A DNA stretch of 64,000 nucleotides from Verrucomicrobiota bacterium (GCA_016871575.1 VHCW01000003.1:36835-100834), one strand, 5' to 3'; positions 44,338 through 61,676 are shown, counted from the stretch's first letter. The notes: generated by a model not told the origin, from the letters alone. A program made the numbers and translations.

Positions 44338-45486
44338 ATGAAACAACTCAACGTCGGTCTCATCGGTTGCGGCTTCATGGGCCGCACACACTCCAACGCC
44401 CACCGCAAGGTCGGCAACTTCTTCAACCTCGAATACCAGCCGGTATTGAAGGCGATCTGCGACTTCAACGCCGAGAAAGCCGGTGCCTTCGCGAAGCAAT
44501 GGGGCTTCGAGTCGGTCGAGACTTGCTGGAAAGCGTTGCTCGCGCGCAAGGACATTGACCTCATTGACATTTGCCTGCCGAACAATCTGCACGCGGAAGT
44601 CGCCATCGCCGCCGCCAAGGCCGGCAAGATGATTATCTGCGAAAAACCGTTGGCCCGCGACGGCAAGGAAGCCGCGCCGATGGTCAAGGCCGTCGAAAAA
44701 GCCGGCGTGCCCAATCTCGTTTCCTTCAACTACCGCCGCATTCCCGCTGTCACGCTCGCCAAGCAACTAATTACTGAAGGCCGGCTCGGAAAGATTTTCC
44801 ATTACCGCGCGAAATTCCTCCAAGACTGGACGATCTCGAAAGACCTGCCGCAGGGCGGCGACGCGCTGTGGCGGCTCGATGTGAAGGCCGCCGGTTCCGG
44901 CGTGACGGGCGATCTGCTCGCGCACTGCATTGACACCGCGCTCTGGCTCAACGGCAGCATCAACACTGTCAACGCGATGACCGAGACGTTCATCAAGGAG
45001 CGTAAGAGCAACATCACCGGCAAGGTGGAGAAGGTCGGCATTGACGACGCGTGCGCGTTCCTGTGCCGGTTTGCCAACGGCTCGCTTGCGACCTTCGAGT
45101 CCACGCGTTACGCCCGCGGCCACAAGGCGCTCTACACCTTCGAGATCAACGGCGAGCACGCCTCGATCTTCTGGGACCTGCACGACCTGCACCGCCTGCA
45201 ATGGTTCGACCACAAGGACGAAGGCAAGTTGCGCGGCTGGCGTTCCATCCACGTCACCGACGGCGATCATCCCTACATGAAGAACTGGTGGGTGCCCGGC
45301 TTGAACGTCGGTTTCGAGCATTCCTTCGTGCATCAACTGGCCGACTTCCTGACCGGCGTTGCCACCGGCAAGCCGGCCAGCCCGACGTTCCGCGAGGCGC
45401 TCGAAACGCAGTACGTTTGCGATGCCGTGTTGAAGTCCGCGAAGACCTGCCGCTGGGAAAAGGTCAAACAAGCGAAGGCGCAATGA
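44338..45486 (+). CDS. Gfo/Idh/MocA family oxidoreductase (cytoplasmic, no signal peptide)
   Basis: [11 protein letters not shown] Rossmann motif and EKP motif. RBS AAAGAAAGG. Confidence 0.85.
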
Positions 45487-46748
45487 ACCGGCGCGCCTTC
45501 CTCAAGACGGCGGCAAAGGCCGGCGCGCTGTTGGCCATGCCGATGGTTCTGCCGGCGTCCGTGTTGGGCCGCGGCGGCGCGGTGGCGCCGAGCGAACGAA
45601 TCGTGCTCGGCGCCATCGGCATTGGCCGGCGCGGTTCCTACGTGCTCGGTTGTTTCCTCGAAGAACAGGACGTGCAGTTCGTGGCCATCTGCGACGTGAA
45701 GAAGGAACGCCGCGACGAGGTCAAGGCGCGCGCCGACCAGAAATACGGCAACAACGAATGCAAGACCTACCGCGACCTGCGCGAGATTCTTGCGCGCGAC
45801 GACATTGACGCGTTGCTCATCGCCACGGGACCGAACTGGCATTGTCTCGCCTCCGTGCTGGCCGCCAAGGCCGGCAAGGATGTCTATTCTGAGAAACCTT
45901 GCACGAAAAACATTGCCGAGAGTTTGATTCTCGCCGACACCTTCCGCCGCACCGGTCGCATCTTTCAGGCCGGCACGCAGCGGCGCAGTCTGCCGAACTT
46001 CGAGTTCGCCGTGGACCTTGCCCGGCTCGGCAAACTCGGCAAGCTCCAGACGCTACACGCGCAGCCGTGGGGAATGGCCACGGGCATGAGCGGTTGGTTG
46101 CCGGAAGAACCGCCGTTGCCCAAGGAGGAAGGCGACTGGGACATGTGGCTCGGACCCGCCGCGTGGCGGCCGTTCAATGCCGAGCTGTTCAAGAGCGCGT
46201 TCCACTTCGAGAAAGGCGGCGGCCTTGTCGGCGGCGGCTGTCTCGAATGGGGGTCGCACTGTGTGGACCTCTGCCAGTGGGCCAACGACGCCGACCACAC
46301 GGCGGCCATCGAGTATTGGCCCGAAGGCAAGGAACTGCACGCCCGCTACCCCAACGGCGTCAAGCTCGTCATGCGCGACACCGGCTGGCTGCCCAACATC
46401 GGTTCCTGCCCCATCCGCTTCGAGGGCGAGAAAGGCTGGGTGGAAACCGGCGACAACGGCGACCTCTACGCCAGTTCGCCTGACCTGCTCGCCGGCCGGC
46501 GCGCCAAGGTTGCCGGGTACCCGGCGAACTTCCACGTCCGCAACTTCCTCGACTGCGTCAAGACCCGCGCCCAGCCCCGCGCCCACGCGGATGCCGCTTG
46601 TTACGCCCACATCACCTGTCACGCCGCCAACATCGCGCTGTTCCTCAACCGCAAGGTCGTTTACGACACGGTGAAACACGAGTTTCCCGGCGATGCCGTG
46701 GCCAACCGTCTGCGCTCCGAAGCGTTGCGCGAACCCTGGAGGATTTGA
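45483..46748 (+). CDS. Tat-exported Gfo/Idh/MocA family oxidoreductase (candidate periplasmic glycoside 3-dehydrogenase)
   Basis: Start [18 protein letters not shown] at aa 145 of the track ORF, with an ATGA overlap. YSEKP motif. Confidence 0.85.
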
Positions 46749-48641: not shown

Positions 48642-49894
48642 AGCATCTCAGCCGGCGGGCGTTTTTGAAAAACTCGCTGCTGGCGGGCGGCGCGCTGGCG
48701 TTTCCGTGGGTCGCCCCGGCGCACGCCGTGGCGCCGAGCGAACGCATCACGCTCGGTGTGATCGGGATTGGCCGGCGTTGCCAGCATGTGCTCGGTTGCC
48801 TGCTCGAAGAACCCGACATGCAGTGCGTGACGATCTGCGACGTGCAAGCCAGCCGGCGCGAAACCGCCAAAAAAATGGTGGACGACAAGTACGGCAACCA
48901 CGACTGCACCACCATCCGGGATTTCCGCGAACTGCTCGCGCGACCCGACATTGACGCCGTCCTCATCGCCACGGGCGACCACTGGCACGCGCTCGCTTCC
49001 ATCATGGCCGCCAAGGCCGGCAAGGACGTTTACAGCGAGAAACCGTGCGCGATGACCATCGCCGATTGCCAGGCCCTCGACGACACGATGCGCCGCTACG
49101 CGCGCGTCTTCCAAGCCGGCACCCAGCGGCGCAGCATCGGCAATTTCCAGTCCGCCGTCCATCTCGCCCGCTCCGGCAAACTCGGGCGGCTCCACACGTT
49201 GCACGCGTCCATCTACAAACTCAGCGTCCGTTACGATTGGCTGCCCGAAGAACCGTTGCCGCCGAAGGAGGAAGTGGACTGGGACATGTGGCTCGGCCCG
49301 TCGCCGTGGCGTCCGTACAACTCCCAGTACGTCGCCGGCCGATGGCGCGAGCATTTCGATTTTGATTCCGGCGGCAAACTGCTCGACTGGGGCGCGCACA
49401 CTGCCGACTTGTGCCAGTGGGCCAACAACGCCGACGATGCCACGCCGGTCGAGTTCATCCCGGACGGCAACACCATCACCGGCCGTTACGCCAACGGCGT
49501 CAAACTTGTCCTGCGTCACGAAGGCTGGCTGGGGACGGGCACCTGCCCGGTCCGCTTCGAGGGCGACGAAGGCTGGGTCGAGACCGGCGACAACGGCGAC
49601 ATCGAAGTCCATCCGGCTTCCCTGCGAAGCGAATTGCGCCAGTTGTCCCAACAACGGCGCGGCACCGATGCCGGCAGTCACGGACGAAATTTCCTCGACT
49701 GCATCCGGTCGCGCGCCCAGACCAATGCGAATTCGAGCGTCATGCGCCACTCACACATCGCCTGTCACGTCGCCGCCATTGCGTGGCTCTTGAAACGCAA
49801 GGTCACATTTGATCCAGTCGCTGAGGCGTTTGTTGGCGACGACGAAGCCAACCGGATGCGTTCCCGCGCCTACCGTGAACCATGGAGGATCTGA
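48638..49894 (+). CDS. Tat-exported Gfo/Idh/MocA family oxidoreductase
   Basis: Start MKHLSRRAFLKNSLLAGGALA with an ATGA overlap to the HEAT gene. YSEKP motif. Confidence 0.85.
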   Translation: MKHLSRRAFLKNSLLAGGALAFPWVAPAHAVAPSERITLGVIGIGRRCQHVLGCLLEEPDMQCVTICDVQASRRETAKKMVDDKYGNHDCTTIRDFRELLARPDIDAVLIATGDHWHALASIMAAKAGKDVYSEKPCAMTIADCQALDDTMRRYARVFQAGTQRRSIGNFQSAVHLARSGKLGRLHTLHASIYKLSVRYDWLPEEPLPPKEEVDWDMWLGPSPWRPYNSQYVAGRWREHFDFDSGGKLLDWGAHTADLCQWANNADDATPVEFIPDGNTITGRYANGVKLVLRHEGWLGTGTCPVRFEGDEGWVETGDNGDIEVHPASLRSELRQLSQQRRGTDAGSHGRNFLDCIRSRAQTNANSSVMRHSHIACHVAAIAWLLKRKVTFDPVAEAFVGDDEANRMRSRAYREPWRI

Positions 49895-53969: not shown

Positions 53970-55265
53970 TTAGATGGTGTACGGGGCGCGCATCGCACGG
54001 GCGCGATAACGGTTGGCTTCGGGGTCGTTGATGAACGTCTCGGTGGCGGGATCGAACTTCATGTCGCGCTTCAGCCACATGCAGATGTTGGCAGCGTGAA
54101 CGGTTGTCATCGAGTGGTGCATCACGCTCTCGTTCGCGACGGTCTTTTGGCGCGAACGGACGCAGTCGAAGAAGTTGCGGACGTGGTCGAGCGAGCGGCC
54201 AGTGCGGGCGACGTAGTCGGCGAGGATTTTCTTGTACTCGGCGAGCAACGACGGCGAGGAGGCCTCCGGCTTCGCGTAGCCGTCGGCCGCGGCGACCCAG
54301 CCTTCGGGGCCGTCGAACCGTTCGCCACAGGAGCCATGCCAGTATTTGTCGCCGCGGGAGAGGATCATCTTCGTGCCGTTGGCGAAATGCGTGGCCATGC
54401 CGTCGCCGGACTCGTTGTTGACGTACTCGTAGGCGATGGGCGAGAGGTCGCCGGCGTCAATGCCCGCCTGGGCTTGCGCGAACGTGTGCGCGCCCCATTC
54501 GCCGATGCAACTGGTGTGGAAATCGAAGTGGCCGCGCCAGCGACCGTCAACGTAGGCTTTGTTGTACGGACGCCACGGACACGGGCCAAGCCAGGCGTCC
54601 CAATCCAACTCGTCCTTCGGCGGCAACGGTTCTTCCGGCAGCCAGTCGGTGCGCATCTGCGCGGCGTCCCACGGCGCGATGTGCGCGTAGGCGGTGTGGA
54701 CTTTGCCGAGCCGGCCGGAGCGCGCCATCTCGATGCAGAACACGTGGTTCGGTTCGCTGAGGCGTTGCGTGCCGGTCTGGTAGATGCGGCCGTATTGCTG
54801 CGCGGTCTCGATGACGGCACGGCCCTCGGCAATGGTCATGCAAGAGGGTTTCTCGCTGTAAATGTCTTTGCCGGCGCGCATGACATAGATGGACATCAAC
54901 GCGTGCCAGCGGTCGCTCGTGGCGCTGAGCACGGCGTCCACATCAGGGCGCGCGGCAAGAAACTCGTGCACGTTGCTGTACATCGCGCAATCGGTCGTGC
55001 CGTATTGCTTGTCAATCATCTCCTTGACGGCGAGGCGGCGGTCCTTGCGGATGTCGCAGATGGCGACGAACTGGACGTCTTTTTCGCGCATCATCCAGGT
55101 CAGGTCGTGCGTGCCGCGCCCGCGAATGCCGATGCCGGCCATGATGATGCGTTCGCTCGGCGCCACGCCGCCGCCGCGCCCGATGGTGCGCGCCGGTACG
55201 ATCAATGGCGCCACCGCGGCTACGCCGGCGGCTTTGAGAAATTGACGGCGACTGAATTGTTTCAT
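53970..55265 (-). CDS. Tat-exported Gfo/Idh/MocA family oxidoreductase (tandem array copy 1)
   Basis: Start MKQFSRRQFLKAAGVAAVA at aa 11 of the track ORF. YSEKP motif. About 75% identical to copy 2 by eye. Confidence 0.85.
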   Translation of the reverse strand: MKQFSRRQFLKAAGVAAVAPLIVPARTIGRGGGVAPSERIIMAGIGIRGRGTHDLTWMMREKDVQFVAICDIRKDRRLAVKEMIDKQYGTTDCAMYSNVHEFLAARPDVDAVLSATSDRWHALMSIYVMRAGKDIYSEKPSCMTIAEGRAVIETAQQYGRIYQTGTQRLSEPNHVFCIEMARSGRLGKVHTAYAHIAPWDAAQMRTDWLPEEPLPPKDELDWDAWLGPCPWRPYNKAYVDGRWRGHFDFHTSCIGEWGAHTFAQAQAGIDAGDLSPIAYEYVNNESGDGMATHFANGTKMILSRGDKYWHGSCGERFDGPEGWVAAADGYAKPEASSPSLLAEYKKILADYVARTGRSLDHVRNFFDCVRSRQKTVANESVMHHSMTTVHAANICMWLKRDMKFDPATETFINDPEANRYRARAMRAPYTI

Positions 55266-55275
55266 GTGTTCTCCT

Positions 55276-56586
55276 TTAGATTGTCCAAGGCGCACGCATC
55301 GCGCGCGACCGGTAACGGTTCGCTTCGGGGTCGTTGATAAATTCTTCTTTCTCGGGATCGAGCTTCATGTCGCGTTTCAACCACATGCAGATGTTGGCCG
55401 CGTGCACCGTCATCATCGAATGATGCATCACGCTCGGGTTTGCGACGGTCTGCTGGCGCGAACGCATGCAGTCGAAGAAATTCCGCCAGTGGTCGAGCGA
55501 ACGCCCCGTGCGGGCGACATACTCGGCGATGACCTTCTTGTACTCGCTCAACAGCGACGGCGACGAGGCGTCGGGTTTCTGGTAGCCGTCCGCGGCGGCG
55601 ACCCAGCCTTCTTCGCCGTCGAAACGCTCGCCACACGAGCCGTGCCAGTGTTTCTTGCCCTGCGAGAAAATCATCTTCGTGCCGTTGGCGAATTGCGTGA
55701 CCATGCCGTCGCCGGAATCATTGTCAATGTACTTGTAGAGAACCGGCGACGTGTCCGACATGTCGAGTCCCGCTTGCGCCTGCGCGAACGTGTGTGCGCC
55801 CCATTCGCCGATGCAGCTCGTGTGAAAATCGTAGTGGCCGCGCCAGCCGCCTTGGATGTAGCGGGAGTTGTACGGACGCCACGGACACGGGCCGAGCCAG
55901 GCATCCCAGTCTACTTCGTCCTTCGACGGCAACGGTTCCTCCGGCAGCCAATCTTGTTTCAATCCGGCAGCGGTCCCGCCGGAGATGTGCGCGTAGGCGG
56001 TGTGGACTTTGCCGAGCCGGCCGGTGCGGGCCATCTCGATGCAGAAAACGTGGTTCGCTTCGCTGAGCCGCTGCGTGCCGGTCTGGTAGATGCGGCCGTA
56101 TTGCTTCGCCGTCTCGACGACCGCGCGGCCTTCGGCGATGGTCAGGGACGACGGTTTCTCGGTGTACACGTCTTTGCCGGCGCGCATCGCGTAAATCGAG
56201 GCGAGCGCGTGCCAGCGGTCGCCCGTCGCGATCAACACGCCGTCAATGTCGGCGCGCTCGGTGACGAACTCGCGGAGGTCGCGGTACATCTTGCAGTCTT
56301 TGCTGTTGTACCGGCTGTCAATCATCTCCTTGACGGCCTCACGACGGTCCTTGCGGATGTCGCAGATGGCGACGAACTGCACGTCCTGTTCTCCCATCAT
56401 CTTTTTCAAGTCACCGGTGCCGCGTCCGCGAATGCCGATGCAACCCATGATGATCTTCTCGCTTGGCGCGACACCGCCGCCGCGTCCGAGCACATGCGCC
56501 GGCACGACCAACGGCATCGCCATCGCCGCGCTGGCGATTTTCAAAAACTGGCGTCGCGAAAAGTTGGGCGTTTTCAAATTCTCCAT
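55276..56586 (-). CDS. Tat-exported Gfo/Idh/MocA family oxidoreductase (tandem array copy 2)
   Basis: MENLKTPNFSRRQFLKIASAAMA. YTEKP motif. Confidence 0.85.
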   Translation of the reverse strand: MENLKTPNFSRRQFLKIASAAMAMPLVVPAHVLGRGGGVAPSEKIIMGCIGIRGRGTGDLKKMMGEQDVQFVAICDIRKDRREAVKEMIDSRYNSKDCKMYRDLREFVTERADIDGVLIATGDRWHALASIYAMRAGKDVYTEKPSSLTIAEGRAVVETAKQYGRIYQTGTQRLSEANHVFCIEMARTGRLGKVHTAYAHISGGTAAGLKQDWLPEEPLPSKDEVDWDAWLGPCPWRPYNSRYIQGGWRGHYDFHTSCIGEWGAHTFAQAQAGLDMSDTSPVLYKYIDNDSGDGMVTQFANGTKMIFSQGKKHWHGSCGERFDGEEGWVAAADGYQKPDASSPSLLSEYKKVIAEYVARTGRSLDHWRNFFDCMRSRQQTVANPSVMHHSMMTVHAANICMWLKRDMKLDPEKEEFINDPEANRYRSRAMRAPWTI

Positions 56587-57878
56587 GGCTCGCGCATCGG
56601 GCGGGAACGCAGACGGTTGGCTTCGGCGTCGCCGATGAATTCGTATTTGAGCAGGTCAAACTTCACGTTTCGTTTCAATTGTTCGCAGATGTCGGCAGCC
56701 AGACAGATCGCCATCGAGCGGAGCATGACTTCGGGATTCGCGATTGCCTGCCGACGCGACCGGACACAGTCGAGGAAATCGCGCATGTGATTCAGGGAAC
56801 GTTGTGTCCGTCCGACGTATTCGGCGATCACCTTCTTGTATTCGAGCAACAGCGACGGCGAAGAGACATCGGTGGTCGCATACCCATCGGCAGCCGCTGT
56901 CCATCCTTTGGGGCCATCGAACCGCTCGCCACAAGCGCCGTGCCAGAACTCGCACTTTTTCCAAACATCACCGGCGACCCGGTACAGTACCAACTTCACG
57001 CCGTTGGACAGCCGCGTCATGATCGTCGCATCCGGCCCGGCGAACTCGAACTCAATCGTCGAAACATTCGACAGATCGAGCCCGGCCAACGCCTGCGCAA
57101 CCGTGTGCGCGCCCCACATCGCGACATCGGTGGCGAGATCGTAGAAACCATACCAGCTTCCACCGCCTTTCAAATACGCGCTGTTGTACGGACGCCACGG
57201 ACACGGCCCGAGCCAAGTGTCCCAGTCCACTTCCTCCTTCGGCGGCAGAGGTTCCTCCGGCAGCCAATCGTAACGTTGCCCGCCGCGCCACCGGCAGTCG
57301 GCGTAGGCCGTGTGAATTGGTCCGAGCTGGCCAGTGCGCGCCATTTCGATGGCAAACACGTGATTCGGCTCGCTGAGCCGCTGCGCGCCGGTCTGGTAAA
57401 CCCGCGCGTAGCGGGCTGCTGTCTCCACGACCGCCTGTCCTTGCGCGATCGTGAGACACGCAGGTTTCTCGGTGTAAACGTCTTTCCCCGCTTTCATCGC
57501 GAGGATGGACGCCAGCGCGTGCCAGCGGTCGCCCGTCGCAATCAACAGCGCATCAATGTCAGTCCGCGTCGCCAGAAACTCCCGAATCTCGCTGTACGTG
57601 GCGCAATCCTTGTTGCCGTATTTGTTGTCCACGACATTCTTGGCGGCTTCGCGCCGGCGTTTCTGGAGGTCGCAGACGGCGACGAACTGAACGTCTTGCT
57701 CGACGAGCATCCAATTCAAATCGTGCGTCCCGCGGCCACCGATGCCGATGCCGCCGGCGATGATGCGCTCGCTCGGCGCGACAGCACCGCCCCGGCCGAG
57801 CACGCGGGCAGGAACCACTAACGGCGCGGCAGCAAGGACGGCTGCGCTCTTCAAAAAAGTGCGGCGATTGATTTGCAT
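56574..57878 (-). CDS. Tat-exported Gfo/Idh/MocA family oxidoreductase (tandem array copy 3, more divergent)
   Basis: MQINRRTFLKSAAVLAAA. YTEKP motif. Confidence 0.85.
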   Translation of the reverse strand: MQINRRTFLKSAAVLAAAPLVVPARVLGRGGAVAPSERIIAGGIGIGGRGTHDLNWMLVEQDVQFVAVCDLQKRRREAAKNVVDNKYGNKDCATYSEIREFLATRTDIDALLIATGDRWHALASILAMKAGKDVYTEKPACLTIAQGQAVVETAARYARVYQTGAQRLSEPNHVFAIEMARTGQLGPIHTAYADCRWRGGQRYDWLPEEPLPPKEEVDWDTWLGPCPWRPYNSAYLKGGGSWYGFYDLATDVAMWGAHTVAQALAGLDLSNVSTIEFEFAGPDATIMTRLSNGVKLVLYRVAGDVWKKCEFWHGACGERFDGPKGWTAAADGYATTDVSSPSLLLEYKKVIAEYVGRTQRSLNHMRDFLDCVRSRRQAIANPEVMLRSMAICLAADICEQLKRNVKFDLLKYEFIGDAEANRLRSRPMREPWRI

Positions 57879-57982: not shown

Positions 57983-58480
57983 ATGGCAAATCCATCCGAT
58001 GCGGACTTTGAAGAACTGCTCGCCCGGTATCGCCGGCCGGTGTTGAACTTCGTGTATCGCTTGCTCGGCGACGCGACAGAGTCCGAGGACGTGGCGCAGG
58101 AGGTTTTTATTCGCGCGTATCAACACTGGAACGAGTTCGATCCGCGCCGCAAAGTCTCGACGTGGCTCTTTGCGCTGGCTCGCAACGCCGCCATTGACCG
58201 GCTCCGCTATCGCCAGCGCCATCCCGTTGAGCCATTGGATTCAGTTCCCGAACCGGCCACCGTTTCCCGCGAAGTCGAAACCCGCGAACTCGGCGACCAA
58301 ATCGCCGCCGCCATCCAATCGTTGCCCGAAGACCAGCGCACCGCCATTGTGCTGGCCGAGTATCACGGTCTTTCTCATGCCGAGATTGCCGAGGTGATGC
58401 ATGGCTCGGAAAAATCCGTTGAGTCACGCCTCTATCGGGCCCGTCAAAGTCTCCGCATCGCACTTGCGCCGCTTCTCTGA
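57983..58480 (+). CDS. ECF-type RNA polymerase sigma-70 factor
   Basis: Region 2 ESEDVAQEVFIRAYQ. Region 4 LSHAEIAEVMHGSEKSVESRLYRARQ. Start at aa 22 of the track ORF. Confidence 0.75.
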   Translation: MANPSDADFEELLARYRRPVLNFVYRLLGDATESEDVAQEVFIRAYQHWNEFDPRRKVSTWLFALARNAAIDRLRYRQRHPVEPLDSVPEPATVSREVETRELGDQIAAAIQSLPEDQRTAIVLAEYHGLSHAEIAEVMHGSEKSVESRLYRARQSLRIALAPLL

Positions 58481-58504
58481 ATCCCGTCGCGCCTCCTTCC
58501 GCGG

Positions 58505-58532
58505 TCACAAAGAAACTGCGCTCACAAAGAAA
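58505..58532. promoter_or_regulatory. Tandem direct repeat TCACAAAGAAA (x2, 17-bp register) upstream of the PaaX-like gene; candidate operator or promoter element
   Basis: Read directly at 58505-58515 and 58522-58532. Confidence 0.3.
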
Positions 58533-58556
58533 TGCCGCCGACAGTTTTACACTATT

Positions 58557-58584
58557 TTGTAACGGTCGTTTCAATATTGTGTAA
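58557..58584. repeat. 28-bp element TTGTAACGGTCGTTTCAATATTGTGTAA. A second copy (23/28 identical, containing the perfect palindrome ACAATATTGT) lies at 59425-59450 just after the PaaX-like gene
   Basis: Direct comparison of the two flanks. The upstream copy ends at the ATG (58584). The downstream copy begins 14 bp after the stop. Confidence 0.4.
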
Positions 58585-59411
58585 TGTTGGGCTTGCCTTG
58601 GGAGGGAGGTTTCGATTATGGATCGGCCATGCCACGGCTCGATTACGCGGATGTGCTGGACTTGTTTCTCTGGACGATGGACAAGCTGACGCGGCCCACG
58701 TTGCAGAACTTGCTGGCTGGTTACGAGGAGTACGCCCACCGTCCCGGCAATGCACATTTGTTTCTTCGCTTGGAACACCAACGGCTGTTGGAACGCACCG
58801 GCAAATCCGGCAAGGAGGCGTCGTACCGGATTACAGCCGACGGCATTCAGCGCGTTCGCGTCACAGATCCGCGGGTCGAATGGAACCAGTCATGGGATGG
58901 TCAATGGCGCGTGGTGGTGTTCGATCTGCCCGAGGCGCGTCGCAAGGACCGCCACGACCTCTGGCGGGCGTTGCGGACGCGAAAACTCGGCATGTTGCAG
59001 CGCAGTGTGTGGATTTGGCCACACGCCTTGCAGCCGATTCTGGAGGAAATCATCCAGGCAGAAGGGATTCCAGAGTGTTTTTGCGGGTTCACCGTCCGTG
59101 ATTTGTTTCTGTGCAGCCACGCCGAAGTGGTTGCCATTGCATGGAATTGGGAGGAGATAGGAAAAGCACACGAGACTTATCTCAAGCATCCGGTGCTGAC
59201 AGGTCGAGGGCTGACAGCTGCGCGGAATGTGGGCCAACTGGCTGCGCTGGCCCGGAATGAACGCCGCTCGTATTCCTACGCATTCGCATTGGATCCGCTG
59301 CTGCCGCGCGCGCTGTGGCCCAAAGGATACCGAGGGGCCGACGTGCACCGCCAAAGCGAACAATTCCGTCATCAGCTCAAAGAAAAATTCCACAATTTGA
59401 ACAACCCCTGA
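58584..59411 (+). CDS. PaaX-family-like transcriptional regulator
   Basis: C-terminal region with RKLGMLQRSVWIWP is PaaX_C-like. The N-terminus has a wHTH-like segment. An alternative start is at 58629, with GGAGGGAGG 20 nt upstream. Flanking GC is lower. Confidence 0.55.
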   Translation: MLGLPWEGGFDYGSAMPRLDYADVLDLFLWTMDKLTRPTLQNLLAGYEEYAHRPGNAHLFLRLEHQRLLERTGKSGKEASYRITADGIQRVRVTDPRVEWNQSWDGQWRVVVFDLPEARRKDRHDLWRALRTRKLGMLQRSVWIWPHALQPILEEIIQAEGIPECFCGFTVRDLFLCSHAEVVAIAWNWEEIGKAHETYLKHPVLTGRGLTAARNVGQLAALARNERRSYSYAFALDPLLPRALWPKGYRGADVHRQSEQFRHQLKEKFHNLNNP

Positions 59412-59424
59412 ATTACGCAATAAT

Positions 59425-59450
59425 GTAATGACCGTTACAATATTGTGTAA
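59425..59450. repeat. Second copy of the 28-bp palindromic element (GTAATGACCGTTACAATATTGTGTAA)
   Basis: See 58557..58584. Confidence 0.4.
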
Positions 59451-59567
59451 CTCTGGTTTTGTTTCAGGTCTGCCTGCCGCGCGCGCTGTGGGTACTGGGG
59501 GTGAGCGGGTGACGGTGGCCATTGAAAAAAAGAGCGAGGGGTTTTCCATTGGCTGACGTATCACTGG

Positions 59568-59864
59568 TTGATGAACCACCAGGACGACCAACTTCACCGG
59601 CTCCTCCAGCAATGGAAGGAGATTGAGCCGCCCGCCCATTTCGACGCGCAAGTCTGGCGTCGCCTCCGACAGAGGAAACCAACCTTTGCAGACTGGTTGC
59701 GCCTGTGGCTGCCGCGACCGGCGTTTGCGCTCGGCGCTGCCGCTCTTGTCGGCGCTGCCATCGGCGTGGCTGGCGGATGGTTCTCCGTCACGCCCGCGAG
59801 TGGGTTCGGGTTGCTCGGACCGGACACGCTGGCCGGCGGTTACGTCCGCATGGCCCAGAGGTAA
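59568..59864 (+). CDS. Small single-pass membrane protein, candidate anti-sigma factor
   Basis: 98 aa with a cytoplasmic N-terminus and one TM (AFALGAAALVGAAIGVAGGWF). Sits between the ECF sigma and the LTxxQ periplasmic protein. Confidence 0.4.
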   Translation: MMNHQDDQLHRLLQQWKEIEPPAHFDAQVWRRLRQRKPTFADWLRLWLPRPAFALGAAALVGAAIGVAGGWFSVTPASGFGLLGPDTLAGGYVRMAQR

Positions 59865-59867
59865 ACC

Positions 59868-60305
59868 ATGAAAACCACACTCGCTCTTCTCATCGTCACC
59901 GCCATCGTGGCGACGACTGCATTTGGCGTCGCGCGATCGCTGCGTTCGCGCCCGCTTGAACTTCACGACACGGCGTGGCTCCGTCATGAGTTGAAGTTGA
60001 CTGACGCTCAAACCGCCGAGGTTGCCAAACTCGAAGCCGACTTCCAAAAGAGCCTGGCCGATTGCTGCGCCGCGCACTGTGCCGCGCGCGCCGAACTCGC
60101 CGGGTCGCTGGCCGATGCGACGAAGGCCGCCGATTGCTGCGCCCGGATGTGCGCCGCGCAAAACGATTCCGAGAAAGTTGCGCTCGACCACATTTTGCGG
60201 GTCCGCGCTCTGTTGACGCCCAAGCAGCAGAAGCGTTACACGGCGTTGATCCAACAACAACTTACCGGTCCCTGCACGATGCGGATTCAACCGGCAACCA
60301 ACTGA
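59868..60305 (+). CDS. Periplasmic LTxxQ-motif protein (CpxP/Spy/ZraP/CnrX-like envelope-stress or metal sensor/chaperone family)
   Basis: Signal peptide MKTTLALLIVTAIVATTAFG. Two LTxxQ-like motifs (LKLTDAQTAEV and LLTPKQQKRY). Several CC pairs. Confidence 0.65.
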   Translation: MKTTLALLIVTAIVATTAFGVARSLRSRPLELHDTAWLRHELKLTDAQTAEVAKLEADFQKSLADCCAAHCAARAELAGSLADATKAADCCARMCAAQNDSEKVALDHILRVRALLTPKQQKRYTALIQQQLTGPCTMRIQPATN

Positions 60306-60352
60306 GATCCCGACACCGATTGGCAACATACCAACCAAAGAAAGGAACAAAC

Positions 60353-60529
60353 ATGAAAACACTGAACATCCTGATGGTGGCGCTGATATTGGGCGCTGCT
60401 CCATTGTGGGCGCAGTGCGGCTCGGGCTGCGACAAGTCCAAGTCCAAGGGCAAGTGTTGCTGCAAGCAATGCGGCGACCCCTGCCCGAACAAGGACTGCA
60501 AGTGCCCGTCCTGCCCGTCCAAGAAGTAG
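60353..60529 (+). CDS. Secreted cysteine-rich, lysine-rich small peptide (58 aa; 11 Cys in the 38-aa predicted mature part), metallothionein-like
   Basis: Strong RBS AAAGGAACAAAC then ATG. Signal-peptide-like MKTLNILMVALILGAAPLWA, then QCGSGCDKSKSKGKCCCKQCGDPCPNKDCKCPSCPSKK with CxC, CCC and CxxC clusters. Confidence 0.5.
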   Translation: MKTLNILMVALILGAAPLWAQCGSGCDKSKSKGKCCCKQCGDPCPNKDCKCPSCPSKK

Positions 60530-60698
60530 TCCCTCCGCCACACAAGGCCGCCCGGTCATACCCTCTATGGCCGGGCGCGCTCTTCAATGACACAGGCTGA
60601 GAAACTGCAGGGTTGTTGGATGCGCCACGCGACGTGTTGGTAGCTGAAGTCAGTCAATTCGCGGCTCGACCGAGCCAGGCAAACGCCTTGCGAGAAGC

Positions 60699-61676
60699 TC
60701 AAACTCCCGCTTTGATGTCCGTTGTGTCAGCGCGCGAGAAAAAAAGCACCTGCGTGAAAAGGGCGCCTTCCGTCCGCTGCCCCAGAACGTTGTCATTCTC
60801 CAGATGGAATCCTGCTGTTTCCAAGTGTGAGATGAGTTGTTCCAGTTCTTTCACCGGGTGAATCTCGGAGACATGAACCTCAATGAACATCCGTCGGATC
60901 CGCTGGAGCGTCGCCACCGGCGTATTGAGGAAGATCTCAAACTCGGCGCCTTCCACGTCGCACTTCAAAAGATCCACAGCGTCCAGTCGTTGCCCGTCGA
61001 GCAGATCGGTCAGGCTGACAGTGCCGACCTCCTCAAAAGTGTTTCGGCCTGTCCCGAAATGATTGGTCCATGATTCATCAATCGAGTAGCTGGCGGCGTT
61101 TCGGATGTCACCGTGATGGATCTTCACGATGCCGCCCGTTCGTCCGGTGACCGCCCGATGCAGCACTTCGTGCGTGTCTCCCCCGTTCAAGGCAACCTGC
61201 TTCACCGCCTGCTCGAAGGTCTCCCGGCTTGCCTCGACGGCCACCACCCGTTTGGCTCTATCCAACATGGCGGAGGTGAAATAGCCGACATTTGCGCCCA
61301 GATCCACGACGTTGCCTAGCGGGCCTTCCAGGGACTTGATCCGATAAACGTCGGTGAAGAACACCTCCTTGAGCGTCGCCCAATCCGAGCCATTCGGCCT
61401 GATCAGCGCGATCGTACTCCCCATATCGATCTGATACTCATCCCCGCCGGTCATGGTCCAGCCTTGAACACCTGATGTGAAGAGCCAATCCCACAACACC
61501 TCACTGCCCGCACGCCGCGACAGGAGAACCGACTGTCCGTTGAGAAACTCCACAACAAACGGTTGATGGGTAAAAAGGCACGTGCGCCAGAAAACCTGAT
61601 ACGGATGCACAAACAGCTTTCGGCAGAGCCTCAGCCGGCGCAAAGAAAACAGATTGGGAATGCGCTTTGATCTCAT
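60699..61676 (-). CDS. FkbM-family SAM-dependent methyltransferase
   Basis: VVDLGANVGYFT (motif I), VVAVEASRETFEQ, LLKCDVEGAEFEIF are typical of FkbM-family MTases. Confidence 0.7.
   Translation of the reverse strand: MRSKRIPNLFSLRRLRLCRKLFVHPYQVFWRTCLFTHQPFVVEFLNGQSVLLSRRAGSEVLWDWLFTSGVQGWTMTGGDEYQIDMGSTIALIRPNGSDWATLKEVFFTDVYRIKSLEGPLGNVVDLGANVGYFTSAMLDRAKRVVAVEASRETFEQAVKQVALNGGDTHEVLHRAVTGRTGGIVKIHHGDIRNAASYSIDESWTNHFGTGRNTFEEVGTVSLTDLLDGQRLDAVDLLKCDVEGAEFEIFLNTPVATLQRIRRMFIEVHVSEIHPVKELEQLISHLETAGFHLENDNVLGQRTEGALFTQVLFFSRADTTDIKAGV

What the first reader, a model, noticed from the sequence alone, without database searches (positions are those of the whole stretch)
57983..60529. CnrYXH-like envelope metal/stress module: ECF sigma, membrane protein, LTxxQ periplasmic protein, plus a secreted metallothionein-like peptide
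The sigma, single-pass membrane protein and LTxxQ periplasmic protein mirror Ni/Co-sensing CnrH/CnrY/CnrX-type or ZraP/CpxP-type systems. Immediately downstream, with a strong RBS, is a 58-aa ORF with a signal-peptide-like N-terminus. It has a 38-aa Cys- and Lys-rich tail (11 Cys; CxC, CCC, CxxC) that resembles metallothioneins. Known bacterial metallothioneins are cytoplasmic. An exported metal-binding peptide under ECF control would be a new kind of envelope metal buffer or effector.
Basis: partly seen in the sequence, partly recalled or inferred. Interest (0 to 1): 0.7.

Follow-up and report, generated by a model that had tools for sequence, protein, structure and literature searches.

The report
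Exported metallothionein-like peptide, copper-sensing sigma module
A freshwater Verrucomicrobium carries a CnrYXH-style membrane metal-sensing switch that has lost its copper/silver efflux pump. It keeps a small, conserved, exported, cysteine-packed peptide that most likely soaks up soft metals in the periplasm, a compartment where metallothionein-like proteins are not normally found.

Summary
The genes are real, but the description was incomplete. The mature peptide has 10 Cys in 38 residues, not 11.

Comparative genomics supports the metal reading. In related Verrucomicrobia the same sigma/anti-sigma/LTXXQ trio sits directly upstream of CusC-CusB-CusA, and the pump keeps the CusA Cu(I)/Ag(I) methionine triad. 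Peptide homologues (8 family members) follow cusA, in one lineage with a 4-nt start/stop overlap. The window has no pump. A 69/76-nt recombination scar in a relative links the LTXXQ 3' end to the peptide gene.

The peptide is under purifying selection (dN/dS 0.16-0.29) with 9 invariant Cys columns. It has a conserved signal peptide and no His, Met or aromatic residues, and it matches no known protein family. The predicted sensor fold is closest to CnrX/NccX. A motif conserved upstream of every anti-sigma gene resembles the CnrH-dependent cnrYp promoter.

Metal binding, export and ECF control are all inferred, not shown. I rate this a new variant of a known kind: an exported metallothionein-like accessory of Cus-type systems.

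The parts
57983..58480 (+). ECF sigma factor (165 aa). The start at 57983 is supported by where the alignments with relatives begin.
   Evidence: Pfam Sigma70_r2 and r4_2. NCBIfam sigma70-ECF scores 108.9 bits against a 42.9 cut-off. 79-85% identical orthologues in L012 and L031. CnrH is a PDB hit at 8e-11 but not the best.
58547..58584 (.). Operator-like palindrome 1. Two 16-bp half sites (consensus TTACACAATATTGTAA) separated by 6 bp, just upstream of the PaaX-like gene.
   Evidence: the four half sites give 5 strand matches in 64 kb where 0.02 are expected. The core is conserved in L031.
58584..59411 (+). PaaX-family transcriptional regulator (275 aa, or 260 aa if it starts at ATG 58629). 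It is inserted between the sigma and anti-sigma genes.
   Evidence: PaaX_M 9.5e-19. TIGR02277 scores only 38.6 bits against a 264.55 cut-off. Present at the same place in L031/L032 at 88% identity. Absent there in L012 and in the distant loci.
59413..59450 (.). Operator-like palindrome 2, directly after the PaaX-like stop codon and upstream of the anti-sigma operon.
   Evidence: A sigma-70-like TTGAAC-16-AATAAT match (59397-59424) overlaps it.
59534..59564 (+). Candidate ECF-dependent promoter, GCGAGGGG-N15-CGTATCAC. The ATG lies 14 nt after the C of CGTAT, which implies a leaderless or near-leaderless mRNA.
   Evidence: The strict pattern occurs once in the window, with 0.12 expected. It occurs exactly once in each of 26 loci, always before the anti-sigma gene. 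There are 15 distinct sequences with the same spacing apart from one that is 1 nt shorter. It resembles cnrYp, -35 CCGAGG / -10 CCGTATA (PMC13492112).
59571..59864 (+). Single-pass membrane protein, the presumed anti-sigma (97 aa; 98 aa from TTG 59568). About 50 aa are cytoplasmic, the TM segment is residues 52-70, and about 28 aa are periplasmic.
   Evidence: Hydropathy. Weak NCBIfam anti-sigma hits at 1e-3 and 4e-3, far below cut-off. It always sits between sigma and LTXXQ in relatives. No PDB match.
59868..60305 (+). Membrane-anchored periplasmic LTXXQ sensor with a CnrX-like predicted fold (145 aa). Invariant C67, H70, C71, R93, M94; near-invariant H108 and C136.
   Evidence: PF07813 1.8e-8. 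Alignment of 20 homologues. Profile against PDB: Spy 3.6e-6, NccX full-length 6e-4, CnrX 0.035. AlphaFold pLDDT 87 and top 15 fold matches CnrX/NccX at TM 0.56-0.78.
60231..60302 (+). LTXXQ 3' tail. A near-identical copy is fused to the end of the cusA reading frame in relative L012, which marks a recombination junction.
   Evidence: tblastn: 87.5% over 24 aa. DNA alignment. 69/76 nt identical including the stop codon, against 48/63 for L012's own LTXXQ tail.
60353..60529 (+). Pre-peptide (58 aa). The signal peptide is 60353-60412 (cleavage predicted after LWA). The mature 38-aa peptide is 60413-60526: QCGSGCDKSKSKGKCCCKQCGDPCPNKDCKCPSCPSKK.
   Evidence: Eight family members. dN/dS 0.16-0.29 and 9 invariant Cys columns. 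No Pfam, NCBIfam or PDB family.
60544..60584 (+). Stable stem-loop after the peptide stop codon, the probable end of the transcript. The next gene is convergent.
   Evidence: RNA fold of 60525-60600: -28.7 kcal/mol, z -2.3, 17-bp main stem. There is no T-run, so the simple terminator scan does not call it.

Best explanation
This is a Verrucomicrobial version of the CnrYXH transmembrane metal-signalling system, tuned to soft metals (most likely Cu(I)/Ag(I)).

Proposed mechanism:
- The membrane-anchored LTXXQ protein has a CnrX-like fold and senses metal in the periplasm through a conserved Cys/His/Met site.
- It passes the signal to the single-pass anti-sigma, which releases the ECF sigma.
- The sigma then transcribes, from a cnrYp-like promoter immediately upstream of the anti-sigma gene, a leaderless operon: anti-sigma, sensor and cargo.

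In related genomes the cargo is a CusCBA-type Cu(I)/Ag(I) efflux pump plus small exported Cys-rich accessory proteins. In this genome the pump is absent from the locus. The only cargo is the 58-aa pre-peptide. It would be exported by Sec, cleaved after LWA, and act as a 38-residue, 10-Cys, Lys-rich, metallothionein-like peptide. That peptide would bind soft metal ions through thiolate clusters in the periplasm, either as a buffer or as a hand-off to pumps encoded elsewhere.

A PaaX-family repressor with two palindromic operators has been inserted between sigma and anti-sigma. It probably adds a second, ligand-dependent layer of control.

Shown: gene content, conservation, synteny, fold similarity, purifying selection, the cis motifs.
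Inferred: metal identity, export, metal binding, promoter function, repressor function.
For: Module:
- Domain hits.
- CnrX/NccX are the top structural matches of a confident model.
- The profile aligns full-length with NccX, including the anchor.
- Invariant C67-x2-H70-C71, M94 and C136 in 20 homologues.

Pump link:
- In L027/L028, L037 and L039 the order is sigma, anti-sigma, LTXXQ, OEP, CusB (with HMBD), CusA, with overlapping or abutting genes.
- L037 adds a YHS/HMBD P1B ATPase. DsbD and a redoxin lie beside the locus in L027 and L037.
- These pumps are 47-49% identical to E. coli CusA. They keep M573/M623/M672 and lack the first TM4 Asp of divalent-type pumps.

Peptide:
- It follows cusA with an ATGA overlap in L001-L003.
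- It follows cusA plus a DUF3347 protein in L026.
- It follows cusA in L012, the closest syntenic relative with a pump.
- It follows LTXXQ directly in the window, L031/L032 and L033.
- It occupies the slot that other exported Cys-rich proteins fill in L027.
- Mature peptides are 26-30% Cys, have no His, Met or aromatic residues, and carry net charge +5 to +8. Several have odd Cys counts.
- dN/dS 0.16-0.29.

Operon:
- Gaps of 3 nt and 47 nt, no terminator before the peptide, and a strong hairpin after it.

Promoter:
- One conserved copy per locus, with near-constant spacing.
- It resembles cnrYp.
- CnrYXH mechanism as described in PMC6851896.
Against: - No experiment or expression data were available. 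Metal binding, export and sigma dependence are all inferences.
- The periplasm is oxidising, so a 10-Cys peptide might be disulfide-bonded rather than metal-loaded.
- The anti-sigma has no detectable similarity to CnrY and only sub-threshold HMM hits.
- The sigma is not specifically CnrH-like by sequence.
- The CnrX ligand set is only partly kept. Reading the alignment by eye, H119 corresponds to H108 and M123 corresponds to Val.
- In the distant loci the promoter motif overlaps a terminator-like hairpin, so part of its conservation could be structural.
- The peptide family is tiny: 8 members, all from one Verrucomicrobial clade.
- The peptide is absent from most loci that carry the ECF/LTXXQ module.
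- With the pump gone, the module here could be a decaying remnant. However, two lineages about 85-90% identical (window and L031) keep the full pump-less, PaaX-containing arrangement, and L033 keeps the LTXXQ-peptide adjacency.
Confidence: 0.6

Rival explanations
1. The peptide is a periplasmic thiol or redox buffer, or a sacrificial target. The module would respond to oxidative, chlorine or disulfide stress (or Spy/CpxP-type protein-folding stress), with the sensor's Cys residues acting as a redox switch rather than a metal site.
For: The LTXXQ profile's best sequence hits are to the chaperone Spy. The sensor's invariant residues are mostly Cys. DsbD and redoxin genes flank related loci. The periplasm is oxidising (general knowledge).
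Against: The module is physically fused to CusCBA pumps with a Cu(I) Met triad, HMBD-bearing CusB and a P1B ATPase in relatives. The fold is closer to CnrX than to Spy or CpxP. Copper stress and disulfide stress are linked, so this partly overlaps the main explanation.
Confidence: 0.15
2. The peptide is a secreted, disulfide-knotted bioactive peptide unrelated to metals: a cationic antimicrobial, a bacteriocin or a signal peptide.
For: It is small, cationic (+6), Cys-rich and has a signal peptide. It matches no known family.
Against: The mature part has no hydrophobic or aromatic residue at all. The Cys number varies from 10 to 16 and is odd in several members, which does not fit a fixed disulfide scaffold. 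No immunity, transporter or maturation gene is conserved nearby. The gene is repeatedly linked to cusA and to metal-sensor genes.
Confidence: 0.08
3. The locus is a decaying remnant left by pump loss. The sigma module and peptide would no longer serve a function in this organism.
For: There is no HME-RND gene in the 64-kb window. cusA fragments lie near the peptide in L031 and L033/L034. L013/L029 show an obviously eroded version with no sigma, cusA or peptide. The region is a rearrangement hot spot.
Against: All five ORFs are intact. Identical copies occur on many contigs from several samples. The same pump-less, PaaX-containing architecture is kept in a lineage 85-90% identical. The peptide is under purifying selection. 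The L012 scar shows that LTXXQ-peptide adjacency predates that pump-containing arrangement.
Confidence: 0.07
4. The small ORF is a regulatory nascent peptide (as CutF is for cutO) or a RiPP precursor, not a free metal-binding product.
For: Exported Cu-sensing leader-type proteins exist (PMC9973294, listed). An FkbM methyltransferase gene lies next door at 60699-61676.
Against: It is the last gene before a hairpin and a convergent gene, so there is nothing downstream to regulate. The FkbM gene is on the other strand and is not conserved next to the peptide in L031, L033, L012 or L001. No RiPP maturase is conserved.
Confidence: 0.04

Closest known systems
CnrYXH / NccYXH of Cupriavidus metallidurans (ECF sigma CnrH, class II anti-sigma CnrY, periplasmic sensor CnrX, controlling the cnrCBA RND pump)
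   Same: A three-part design: an ECF sigma, a short single-pass anti-sigma and a membrane-anchored LTXXQ-superfamily sensor of about 148 aa. The sensor fold is closest to CnrX/NccX. In relatives the module adjoins an HME-RND pump. A promoter-like motif before the anti-sigma gene resembles cnrYp. Mechanism as in PMC6851896.
   Different: The gene order is sigma first, not last. The anti-sigma is not detectably related to CnrY. The sensor's conserved residues are Cys/His/Met, not the His3Glu(+Met) Ni/Co site. The associated pumps are CusA-type (Cu/Ag), not CnrA. The pump is missing here, and a PaaX-family gene and an exported Cys-rich peptide are added.
CusCFBA / SilCFBA copper-silver efflux with the periplasmic chaperone CusF/SilF
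   Same: In relatives the peptide gene is an accessory gene of a CusA-type operon, as cusF is. It is expected to be periplasmic and to bind Cu(I)/Ag(I).
   Different: CusF is an OB-fold protein of about 110 aa (the cusF gene is 333 nt). From general knowledge it binds one ion through Met/His/Trp. The peptide is 36-55 aa when mature, all-Cys, and has no Met, His or Trp. It follows cusA rather than preceding cusB. The Cus system is controlled by a two-component system (CusRS), not by an ECF sigma.
Bacterial metallothioneins (SmtA/BmtA, MymT, PmtA)
   Same: Small size, about 26-30% Cys, CxC/CC(C)/CxxC motifs, Lys next to Cys, and no aromatic residues. This fits the definition of metallothioneins as small Cys-rich metal-thiolate cluster proteins (PMC7558416).
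   Different: There is no sequence relationship to any metallothionein family in Pfam or the PDB. It carries a cleavable Sec-type signal peptide, whereas metallothioneins are placed among cytosolic Cu-binding proteins (Figure 1 legend of PMC7558416). It sits in efflux-pump or ECF operons.
Csp1 copper storage proteins (Tat-exported)
   Same: An exported protein that stores Cu(I) on many Cys thiolates, so there is precedent for thiolate-based copper binding outside the cytoplasm (PMC7558416).
   Different: Csp1 is a pre-folded four-helix bundle that forms tetramers and has a Tat signal. The peptide is too short for a bundle and has no twin-arginine motif. It would fold only around metal.
PaaX (phenylacetate catabolism repressor)
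   Same: Shares the central Cas2-like PaaX_M domain and has a weak C-terminal PaaX_C match.
   Different: It scores far below the PaaX equivalog threshold, 38.6 against 264.55 bits. There are no paa genes nearby. The palindromic operator TTACACAATATTGTAA is defined here only by conservation.

Membership tests
CnrYXH-type ECF signalling module | [quoted passage not shown] | tested here: met
   Pfam r2 5e-21 and r4_2 6e-19. NCBIfam sigma70-ECF above cut-off.
CnrYXH-type ECF signalling module | Sigma belongs to the CnrH group (ECF20, called ECF291 in the newer scheme) | tested here: inconclusive
   CnrH (4cxf) is hit at 8e-11, but SigH, SigW and RpoE score higher. No ECF-group classifier was available. 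The promoter-like motif resembles cnrYp.
CnrYXH-type ECF signalling module | Short single-pass anti-sigma with a cytoplasmic N-terminal domain of about 45 aa (class II, CnrY-like) | tested here: inconclusive
   The topology fits: about 50 aa, then TM 52-70, then about 28 aa. The position is conserved. Only sub-threshold anti-sigma HMM hits and no PDB or CnrY similarity. Sigma binding was not tested.
CnrYXH-type ECF signalling module | Membrane-anchored periplasmic sensor with the CnrX fold | tested here: met
   N-terminal hydrophobic anchor, residues 4-22. Model pLDDT 87. Top 15 PDB fold matches are CnrX/NccX at TM 0.56-0.78. Full-length profile match to NccX.
CnrYXH-type ECF signalling module | CnrX Ni/Co ligand set (H42, H46, E63, H119, M123) | tested here: inconclusive
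   Read by eye from the low-scoring NccX alignment. The H119 equivalent is near-invariant H108. The H42 equivalent (H33) is present only in the window's clade. The M123 equivalent is Val. The family's own invariant residues are C67, H70, C71, M94 and C136. The site is different and probably suited to soft metals.
CnrYXH-type ECF signalling module | Controls an adjacent HME-RND efflux pump | tested here: not met
   No RND gene lies in this locus or anywhere in the 64-kb window. The feature is met in relatives L012, L027, L037 and L039.
Spy/CpxP/ZraP LTXXQ superfamily | LTXXQ-motif helical hairpin domain (PF07813) | tested here: met
   PF07813 scores 35.4 bits against a 24.3 cut-off. LTDAQ and LTPKQ motifs are visible. 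Spy is the best sequence hit in the PDB.
Metallothionein (operational class) | Small size, high Cys content, CxC/CC/CxxC motifs, few or no aromatic residues | tested here: met
   38 aa, 10 Cys (26%), no aromatic, His or Met residues. Family members are 26-30% Cys.
Metallothionein (operational class) | Binds several metal ions in thiolate clusters | not testable with these tools
   This needs metal titration and mass spectrometry on reduced peptide.
Known metallothionein sequence families (SmtA/BmtA, eukaryotic metallothioneins) | Significant match to the family profile | tested here: not met
   No Pfam hit at E<=0.1 for the window peptide. Across the 8 members the best is Metallothio_Euk at E 9.7 in one member. 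The PDB contains a solved SmtA structure (1JJD per PMC7558416), yet the profile search found no metallothionein.
Sec-exported protein (SPase I substrate) | n-region, h-region and c-region with small residues at -1 and -3, and no lipobox | tested here: inconclusive
   K2, a 15-residue hydrophobic core, P at -4, L at -3 and A at -1. The site is conserved as LWA or LALA in all 8 members. Cys is not at +1, so there is no lipobox. This is a rule-based reading only, because no SignalP was available.
CusF/SilF periplasmic chaperone | OB fold with a Met/His/Trp Cu(I)/Ag(I) site (from general knowledge) | tested here: not met
   No Met, His or Trp in the mature peptide. No family hit.
PaaX regulator | Match to the PaaX equivalog model and a paa operon context | tested here: not met
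   TIGR02277 scores 38.6 bits against a 264.55 cut-off. Only the PaaX_M domain passes. No paa genes were seen among the neighbouring genes.

The most novel reading that the evidence does not exclude
This would be the first gene-encoded periplasmic metallothionein. The family consists of Sec-exported, all-Cys, Lys-rich peptides that evolve by adding and dropping CxC units. In some Verrucomicrobia they would replace CusF-type chaperones as the periplasmic Cu(I)/Ag(I) acceptor of Cus-type pumps. The peptide can also persist as the sole effector of a CnrYXH-like ECF switch once the pump is gone. That would make sequestration, rather than efflux, the output of an envelope metal-stress regulon.
Probability: 0.45. 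Interest if true: 0.7.

Novelty: new variant of a known kind. Interest (0 to 1): 0.6.

Why it matters
Bacterial metallothioneins are rare and are treated as cytoplasmic. Periplasmic copper and silver handling is thought to rely on Met/His proteins (CusF, SilE/PcoE, CopC), because free thiols are unstable in an oxidising compartment.

A conserved, exported, thiol-only peptide wired into Cus-type and CnrYXH-type loci would show that thiolate-cluster sequestration is also used in the cell envelope. It would give a very small natural scaffold (36-55 residues) for metal capture.

It would also extend the CnrYXH signalling design to soft metals and to a phylum where ECF systems are abundant but almost unstudied. 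The locus further offers a natural series of pump gain and loss, with scars, for studying how resistance operons are remodelled.

Tried and rejected
- **Family searches for the peptide.** Pfam, NCBIfam and PDB gave nothing meaningful. The one NCBIfam hit (PExPT-CTERM, 17.8 bits against a 40 cut-off) covers only the signal peptide.
- **Exhaustive phmmer over 1.84 billion representatives.** Only two relatives were found. The word-indexed search gave two and then seven. The metagenome DNA-pattern scan gave one locus. The family is genuinely small or too divergent to detect.
- **Lipoprotein.** Rejected. There is no lipobox; the sequence is LWA-QC and Cys is not at +1.
- **Tat export (Csp1-like).** Rejected. 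There is no twin-arginine motif.
- **RiPP precursor with the neighbouring FkbM methyltransferase.** Rejected. That gene is convergent and not conserved beside the peptide.
- **cus/czc genes elsewhere in the window.** None were found; only the 24-codon scar matched.
- **Simple sigma-70 promoter and terminator scan.** It gave one promoter-like site and no relevant terminator.
- **Direction of pump gain or loss.** Only partly resolved. The L012 scar argues that LTXXQ-peptide adjacency came first there. The cusA fragments near the peptide in L031 and L033 argue for earlier pump adjacency.
- **The original cnr promoter paper (PMC94429).** It is not held, so I used the restatement in PMC13492112.
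- **Structure prediction of the peptide.** Not attempted, because a metal-dependent fold would not be modelled meaningfully.

Full report
**What is in the span**

The + strand from 57983 to 60529 carries five genes, not four.
- An ECF sigma factor at 57983-58480: Sigma70_r2 5e-21, r4_2 6e-19.
- A 275-aa PaaX-family regulator at 58584-59411: PaaX_M 9.5e-19, but only 38.6 bits against the 264.55-bit PaaX equivalog cut-off.
- A 97/98-aa protein at 59568/59571-59864 with one hydrophobic segment (residues 52-70). It gives only sub-threshold anti-sigma hits.
- A 145-aa LTXXQ protein at 59868-60305: PF07813 above cut-off, PF13801 'heavy-metal resistance' just below.
- A 58-aa ORF at 60353-60529.

The mature 38-residue part of the small ORF has 10 Cys, not 11. 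Protein identities point to an uncultured freshwater Verrucomicrobium. An identical LTXXQ protein is deposited as 'MAG: periplasmic heavy metal sensor [Verrucomicrobia bacterium]'. Identical loci occur on JGI and Logan metagenome contigs.

**The small ORF is a real gene**

Its 38-aa stretch is the most Cys-dense of all 859 six-frame open segments in the window. That alone is weak evidence, because off-frame segments reach 8 Cys. The stronger evidence is conservation.

Searches found eight family members, 56-75 aa long. They share three features.
- A signal-peptide-like N-terminus ending in LWA or LALA.
- An invariant KCCC-x2-C-x3-C ... CKC-x2-C core.
- A C-terminal basic tail.

Codon-level comparison of six loci gives dN/dS of 0.16-0.29 and nine invariant Cys columns. 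Synonymous TGC/TGT changes occur at some of those columns. Between the window and L002, the differences in the mature part are synonymous changes plus a 2-codon in-frame indel. The purine-rich leader with its AAGGA ribosome-binding site is conserved too.

**What the mature peptide looks like**

The predicted mature peptides are 36-55 residues long.
- They are 26-30% Cys and rich in Lys, with net charge +5 to +8.
- They contain no His, no Met and no aromatic residue.
- In the window peptide there is no hydrophobic residue at all.
- Cys counts vary (10, 14, 15, 16) through gain and loss of CxC units, and several counts are odd.

That composition fits the operational definition of a metallothionein (PMC7558416). 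It fits poorly with a fixed disulfide-knot scaffold or an amphipathic antimicrobial peptide. The family matches no Pfam, NCBIfam or PDB family, including the metallothionein families. There is no lipobox and no twin-arginine motif.

**Where the peptide gene sits in other genomes**

This is the main new evidence.
- In L001-L003 a 93%-identical peptide gene overlaps (ATGA) the stop codon of a CusA/CzcA-family RND pump gene.
- In L026 a 68-aa member follows cusA and a secreted DUF3347-like protein.
- L012 is the closest relative with a pump and shares the upstream GFO/Idh synteny. Its order is sigma, anti-sigma, LTXXQ, cusB, cusA, peptide, with no PaaX gene there.
- In L031/L032, whose flanking proteins are 85-90% identical to the window's, the architecture matches the window exactly: sigma, PaaX-like, anti-sigma, LTXXQ, peptide. 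Yet the peptide is only 46% identical.
- In L033/L034 the order is LTXXQ, peptide, then a 40-codon cusA 3' fragment.

So the peptide gene is found next to either a Cus-type pump gene or the LTXXQ sensor gene, and its flanks are a rearrangement hot spot.

**The recombination scar**

In L012 the last 24 codons and the stop codon of the 'cusA' reading frame are a copy of an LTXXQ gene's 3' end. That copy is 69/76 nt identical to the window's LTXXQ tail. L012's own LTXXQ tail is only 48/63 identical. An LTXXQ-then-peptide arrangement like the window's therefore existed before cusBA came to lie between them in that lineage.

Conversely, cusA fragments near the peptide in L031 and L033 point to older pump adjacency. 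The history is one of repeated gain and loss, and I could not fully order the events. The window has no HME-RND gene at this locus or anywhere in its 64 kb.

**The wider module is a copper/silver system**

More distant Verrucomicrobial loci (LTXXQ 42-55% identical) show the complete arrangement. The order is ECF sigma, anti-sigma, LTXXQ, outer-membrane factor, CusB with a heavy-metal-binding domain, then CusA. The genes overlap or abut.
- DsbD and a redoxin lie beside the locus in L027 and L037.
- In L037 a YHS/HMBD P1B-type ATPase sits between sigma and anti-sigma.
- The pumps are 47-49% identical to E. coli CusA and keep the Cu(I)/Ag(I) methionine triad M573/M623/M672.
- Their TM4 motif is S-I-G...D...E-N. 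From my recollection of the HME-RND classification, the lack of a first Asp marks monovalent-cation pumps.
- After cusA, L027 encodes other exported Cys-rich proteins: a 149-aa lipoprotein with 12 Cys and a 120-aa secreted protein. A membrane protein follows, and its homologue also follows the peptide in L001.

The peptide therefore occupies a slot reserved for small periplasmic metal-handling accessories.

**The sensor**

Twenty homologues share invariant C67, H70, C71, R93 and M94, and near-invariant H108 and C136. The profile hits Spy best by sequence (3.6e-6). It aligns full-length, N-terminal anchor included, with NccX (6e-4), and it hits CnrX at 0.035.

An AlphaFold model (pLDDT 87) consists of an N-terminal helix plus a helical hairpin domain. 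Its top 15 PDB matches are all CnrX/NccX structures at TM 0.56-0.78, well ahead of CpxP. The fold and architecture are therefore CnrX-like. The conserved residues suggest a thiolate/His/Met site suited to soft metals, not the Ni/Co site of CnrX.

**Regulatory DNA**

A motif lies immediately upstream of every anti-sigma gene examined: GCGAGGG(T)TTT, then 11-12 nt, then CGTAT(C/T)AC, then 5 nt, then TGATG.
- It occurs once per locus in 26 loci. There are 15 distinct sequences with the same spacing apart from one that is 1 nt shorter.
- In the window it lies at 59534-59564, and the ATG is at 59571.
- Its two blocks resemble the CnrH-dependent promoter cnrYp in front of cnrY. That promoter has -35 CCGAGG and -10 CCGTATA and was verified by primer extension and run-off transcription according to PMC13492112.
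- The constant 14-nt distance from CGTAT to the ATG, and the lack of a Shine-Dalgarno sequence, suggest a leaderless transcript.

I treat it as a candidate ECF promoter. One caveat applies: in the distant loci its upstream block also forms the 3' half of a terminator-like hairpin.

Downstream, the gaps are 3 nt (anti-sigma to LTXXQ) and 47 nt (LTXXQ to peptide), with no terminator-like site between them. A 17-bp stem-loop (-28.7 kcal/mol) follows the peptide stop codon. The anti-sigma, sensor and peptide genes are therefore most likely one operon.

**The PaaX-family insert**

The 1.09-kb sigma-to-anti-sigma interval holds the PaaX-like gene flanked by two 38-bp elements. Each element is an inverted pair of the 16-bp palindrome TTACACAATATTGTAA.
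- These four half sites are the only matches in 64 kb, where 0.02 are expected.
- They are conserved at both positions in L031.
- The first overlaps the regulator's own upstream region. The second overlaps a sigma-70-like hexamer pair upstream of the ECF-type motif.

I infer an autoregulated repressor that also gates a housekeeping-sigma promoter for the anti-sigma operon. This is untested. The same intergenic site holds the ATPase insert in L037, together with a truncated duplicate of the anti-sigma N-terminus. It is therefore a recurrent insertion point. L012 has a 35%-identical PaaX-like paralogue convergent with the peptide.

**Most likely mechanism**

By analogy with CnrYXH (PMC6851896), periplasmic Cu(I)/Ag(I) binds the CnrX-like sensor. 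The sensor then alters its contact with the single-pass anti-sigma, and the ECF sigma is freed. The sigma transcribes the leaderless anti-sigma/sensor/cargo operon.

Here the cargo is only the pre-peptide. It is exported, cleaved after LWA, and binds soft metals through thiolate clusters, either as a periplasmic buffer or as a donor to pumps encoded elsewhere. I put about 0.6 on this whole chain. My component estimates are:
- The peptide is a real gene: about 0.95.
- The module is copper/silver-related: about 0.8.
- The peptide is exported: about 0.85.
- The peptide binds metal: about 0.65.

The rivals are listed with their evidence in the Rival explanations section: a redox or thiol-stress buffer, a non-metal bioactive peptide, a decaying remnant, and a regulatory leader or RiPP precursor. 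The oxidising periplasm is the main objection to the favoured reading. In its favour, related loci encode DsbD and redoxin functions alongside the module, which could keep periplasmic thiols reduced.

**Comparison with known systems, and novelty**

The signalling part works like CnrYXH, and its sensor shares the CnrX fold. It is not a demonstrated orthologue, for four reasons.
- The anti-sigma is unrelated by sequence.
- The sigma is not specifically CnrH-like.
- The ligand set differs.
- In this window the defining adjacent pump is absent.

The peptide meets the compositional definition of a metallothionein but belongs to no known metallothionein family, and it carries an export signal. Tat-exported Csp1 is a precedent for thiolate-based copper storage outside the cytoplasm (PMC7558416), but Csp1 is a pre-folded four-helix bundle. 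Four full-text literature searches found no description of an exported metallothionein-like peptide in cus or ECF operons. That is absence from the searched library, not proof of novelty.

I rate the finding as a new variant of a known kind, with moderate-to-high interest (0.6). The interest is limited by the family's very narrow distribution and by the lack of any functional data.

Noticed in passing
window 59301-59318 and 59474-59491: An exact 18-nt direct repeat, CTGCCGCGCGCGCTGTGG. One copy is inside the 3' coding region of the PaaX-like gene (encoding LPRALW). The other is in the intergenic stretch between operator 2 and the ECF-type promoter motif. It may be a duplication scar from the insertion of the PaaX cassette.
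   Followed up: no
L037 5725-10004: In this relative a YHS/HMBD P1B-type ATPase, two small ORFs and a 37-aa truncated duplicate of the anti-sigma N-terminus lie between the sigma and anti-sigma genes. This is the same insertion site as the PaaX cassette in the window.
   Followed up: partly
L027 16395-17305; L037 5355-5681; L021 3379-3681: Other exported Cys-rich proteins occur in these copper loci. One is a 149-aa lipoprotein with 12 Cys after cusA. Another is a 120-aa secreted protein with Cys/His motifs. Others are secreted proteins with N-terminal clusters such as DDCCTPEPCCPVGECQCH next to the sigma gene. None has a confident family assignment.
   Followed up: partly
L013 / L029 (anti-sigma, LTXXQ, cusB): An eroded version of the locus in a close relative. 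It has anti-sigma, LTXXQ and cusB only, with no adjacent sigma, no cusA and no peptide. The GAGGG..CGTAT motif is still present.
   Followed up: partly
L012 10144-10419 (- strand): A PaaX-like paralogue (35% identical over 72 aa) lies convergent with the peptide gene in the relative that lacks the PaaX insert between sigma and anti-sigma.
   Followed up: no
L015-L025, about 60-110 nt upstream of the sigma gene: A conserved long inverted repeat (CTGATCTGAGAC ... GTCTCAGATCAG) precedes the sigma gene in the distant loci. It is absent from the window.
   Followed up: no
window 53973-57878 (- strand), 45483-46745 and 48647-49891 (+ strand): Five paralogous GFO/Idh/MocA oxidoreductase genes, 47-62% identical to one another; the copy scanned with Pfam carries a Tat signal. 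Three are in tandem directly upstream of the sigma gene. This tandem set is syntenic in L012 and L031.
   Followed up: no
window 60699-61676 (- strand): An FkbM-family methyltransferase gene is convergent with the peptide. The segment between the peptide and the conserved DUF386/GFO genes differs in each lineage: FkbM here, peptidase M28 in L033, unknown genes in L031. The peptide's downstream flank is therefore a variable region.
   Followed up: partly
P0001 versus P0003 source lists: The identical LTXXQ protein is listed from NCBI, but the identical 58-aa peptide is listed only from JGI, Logan and ENA. The small ORF may therefore be unannotated in the NCBI record of this MAG.
   Followed up: no
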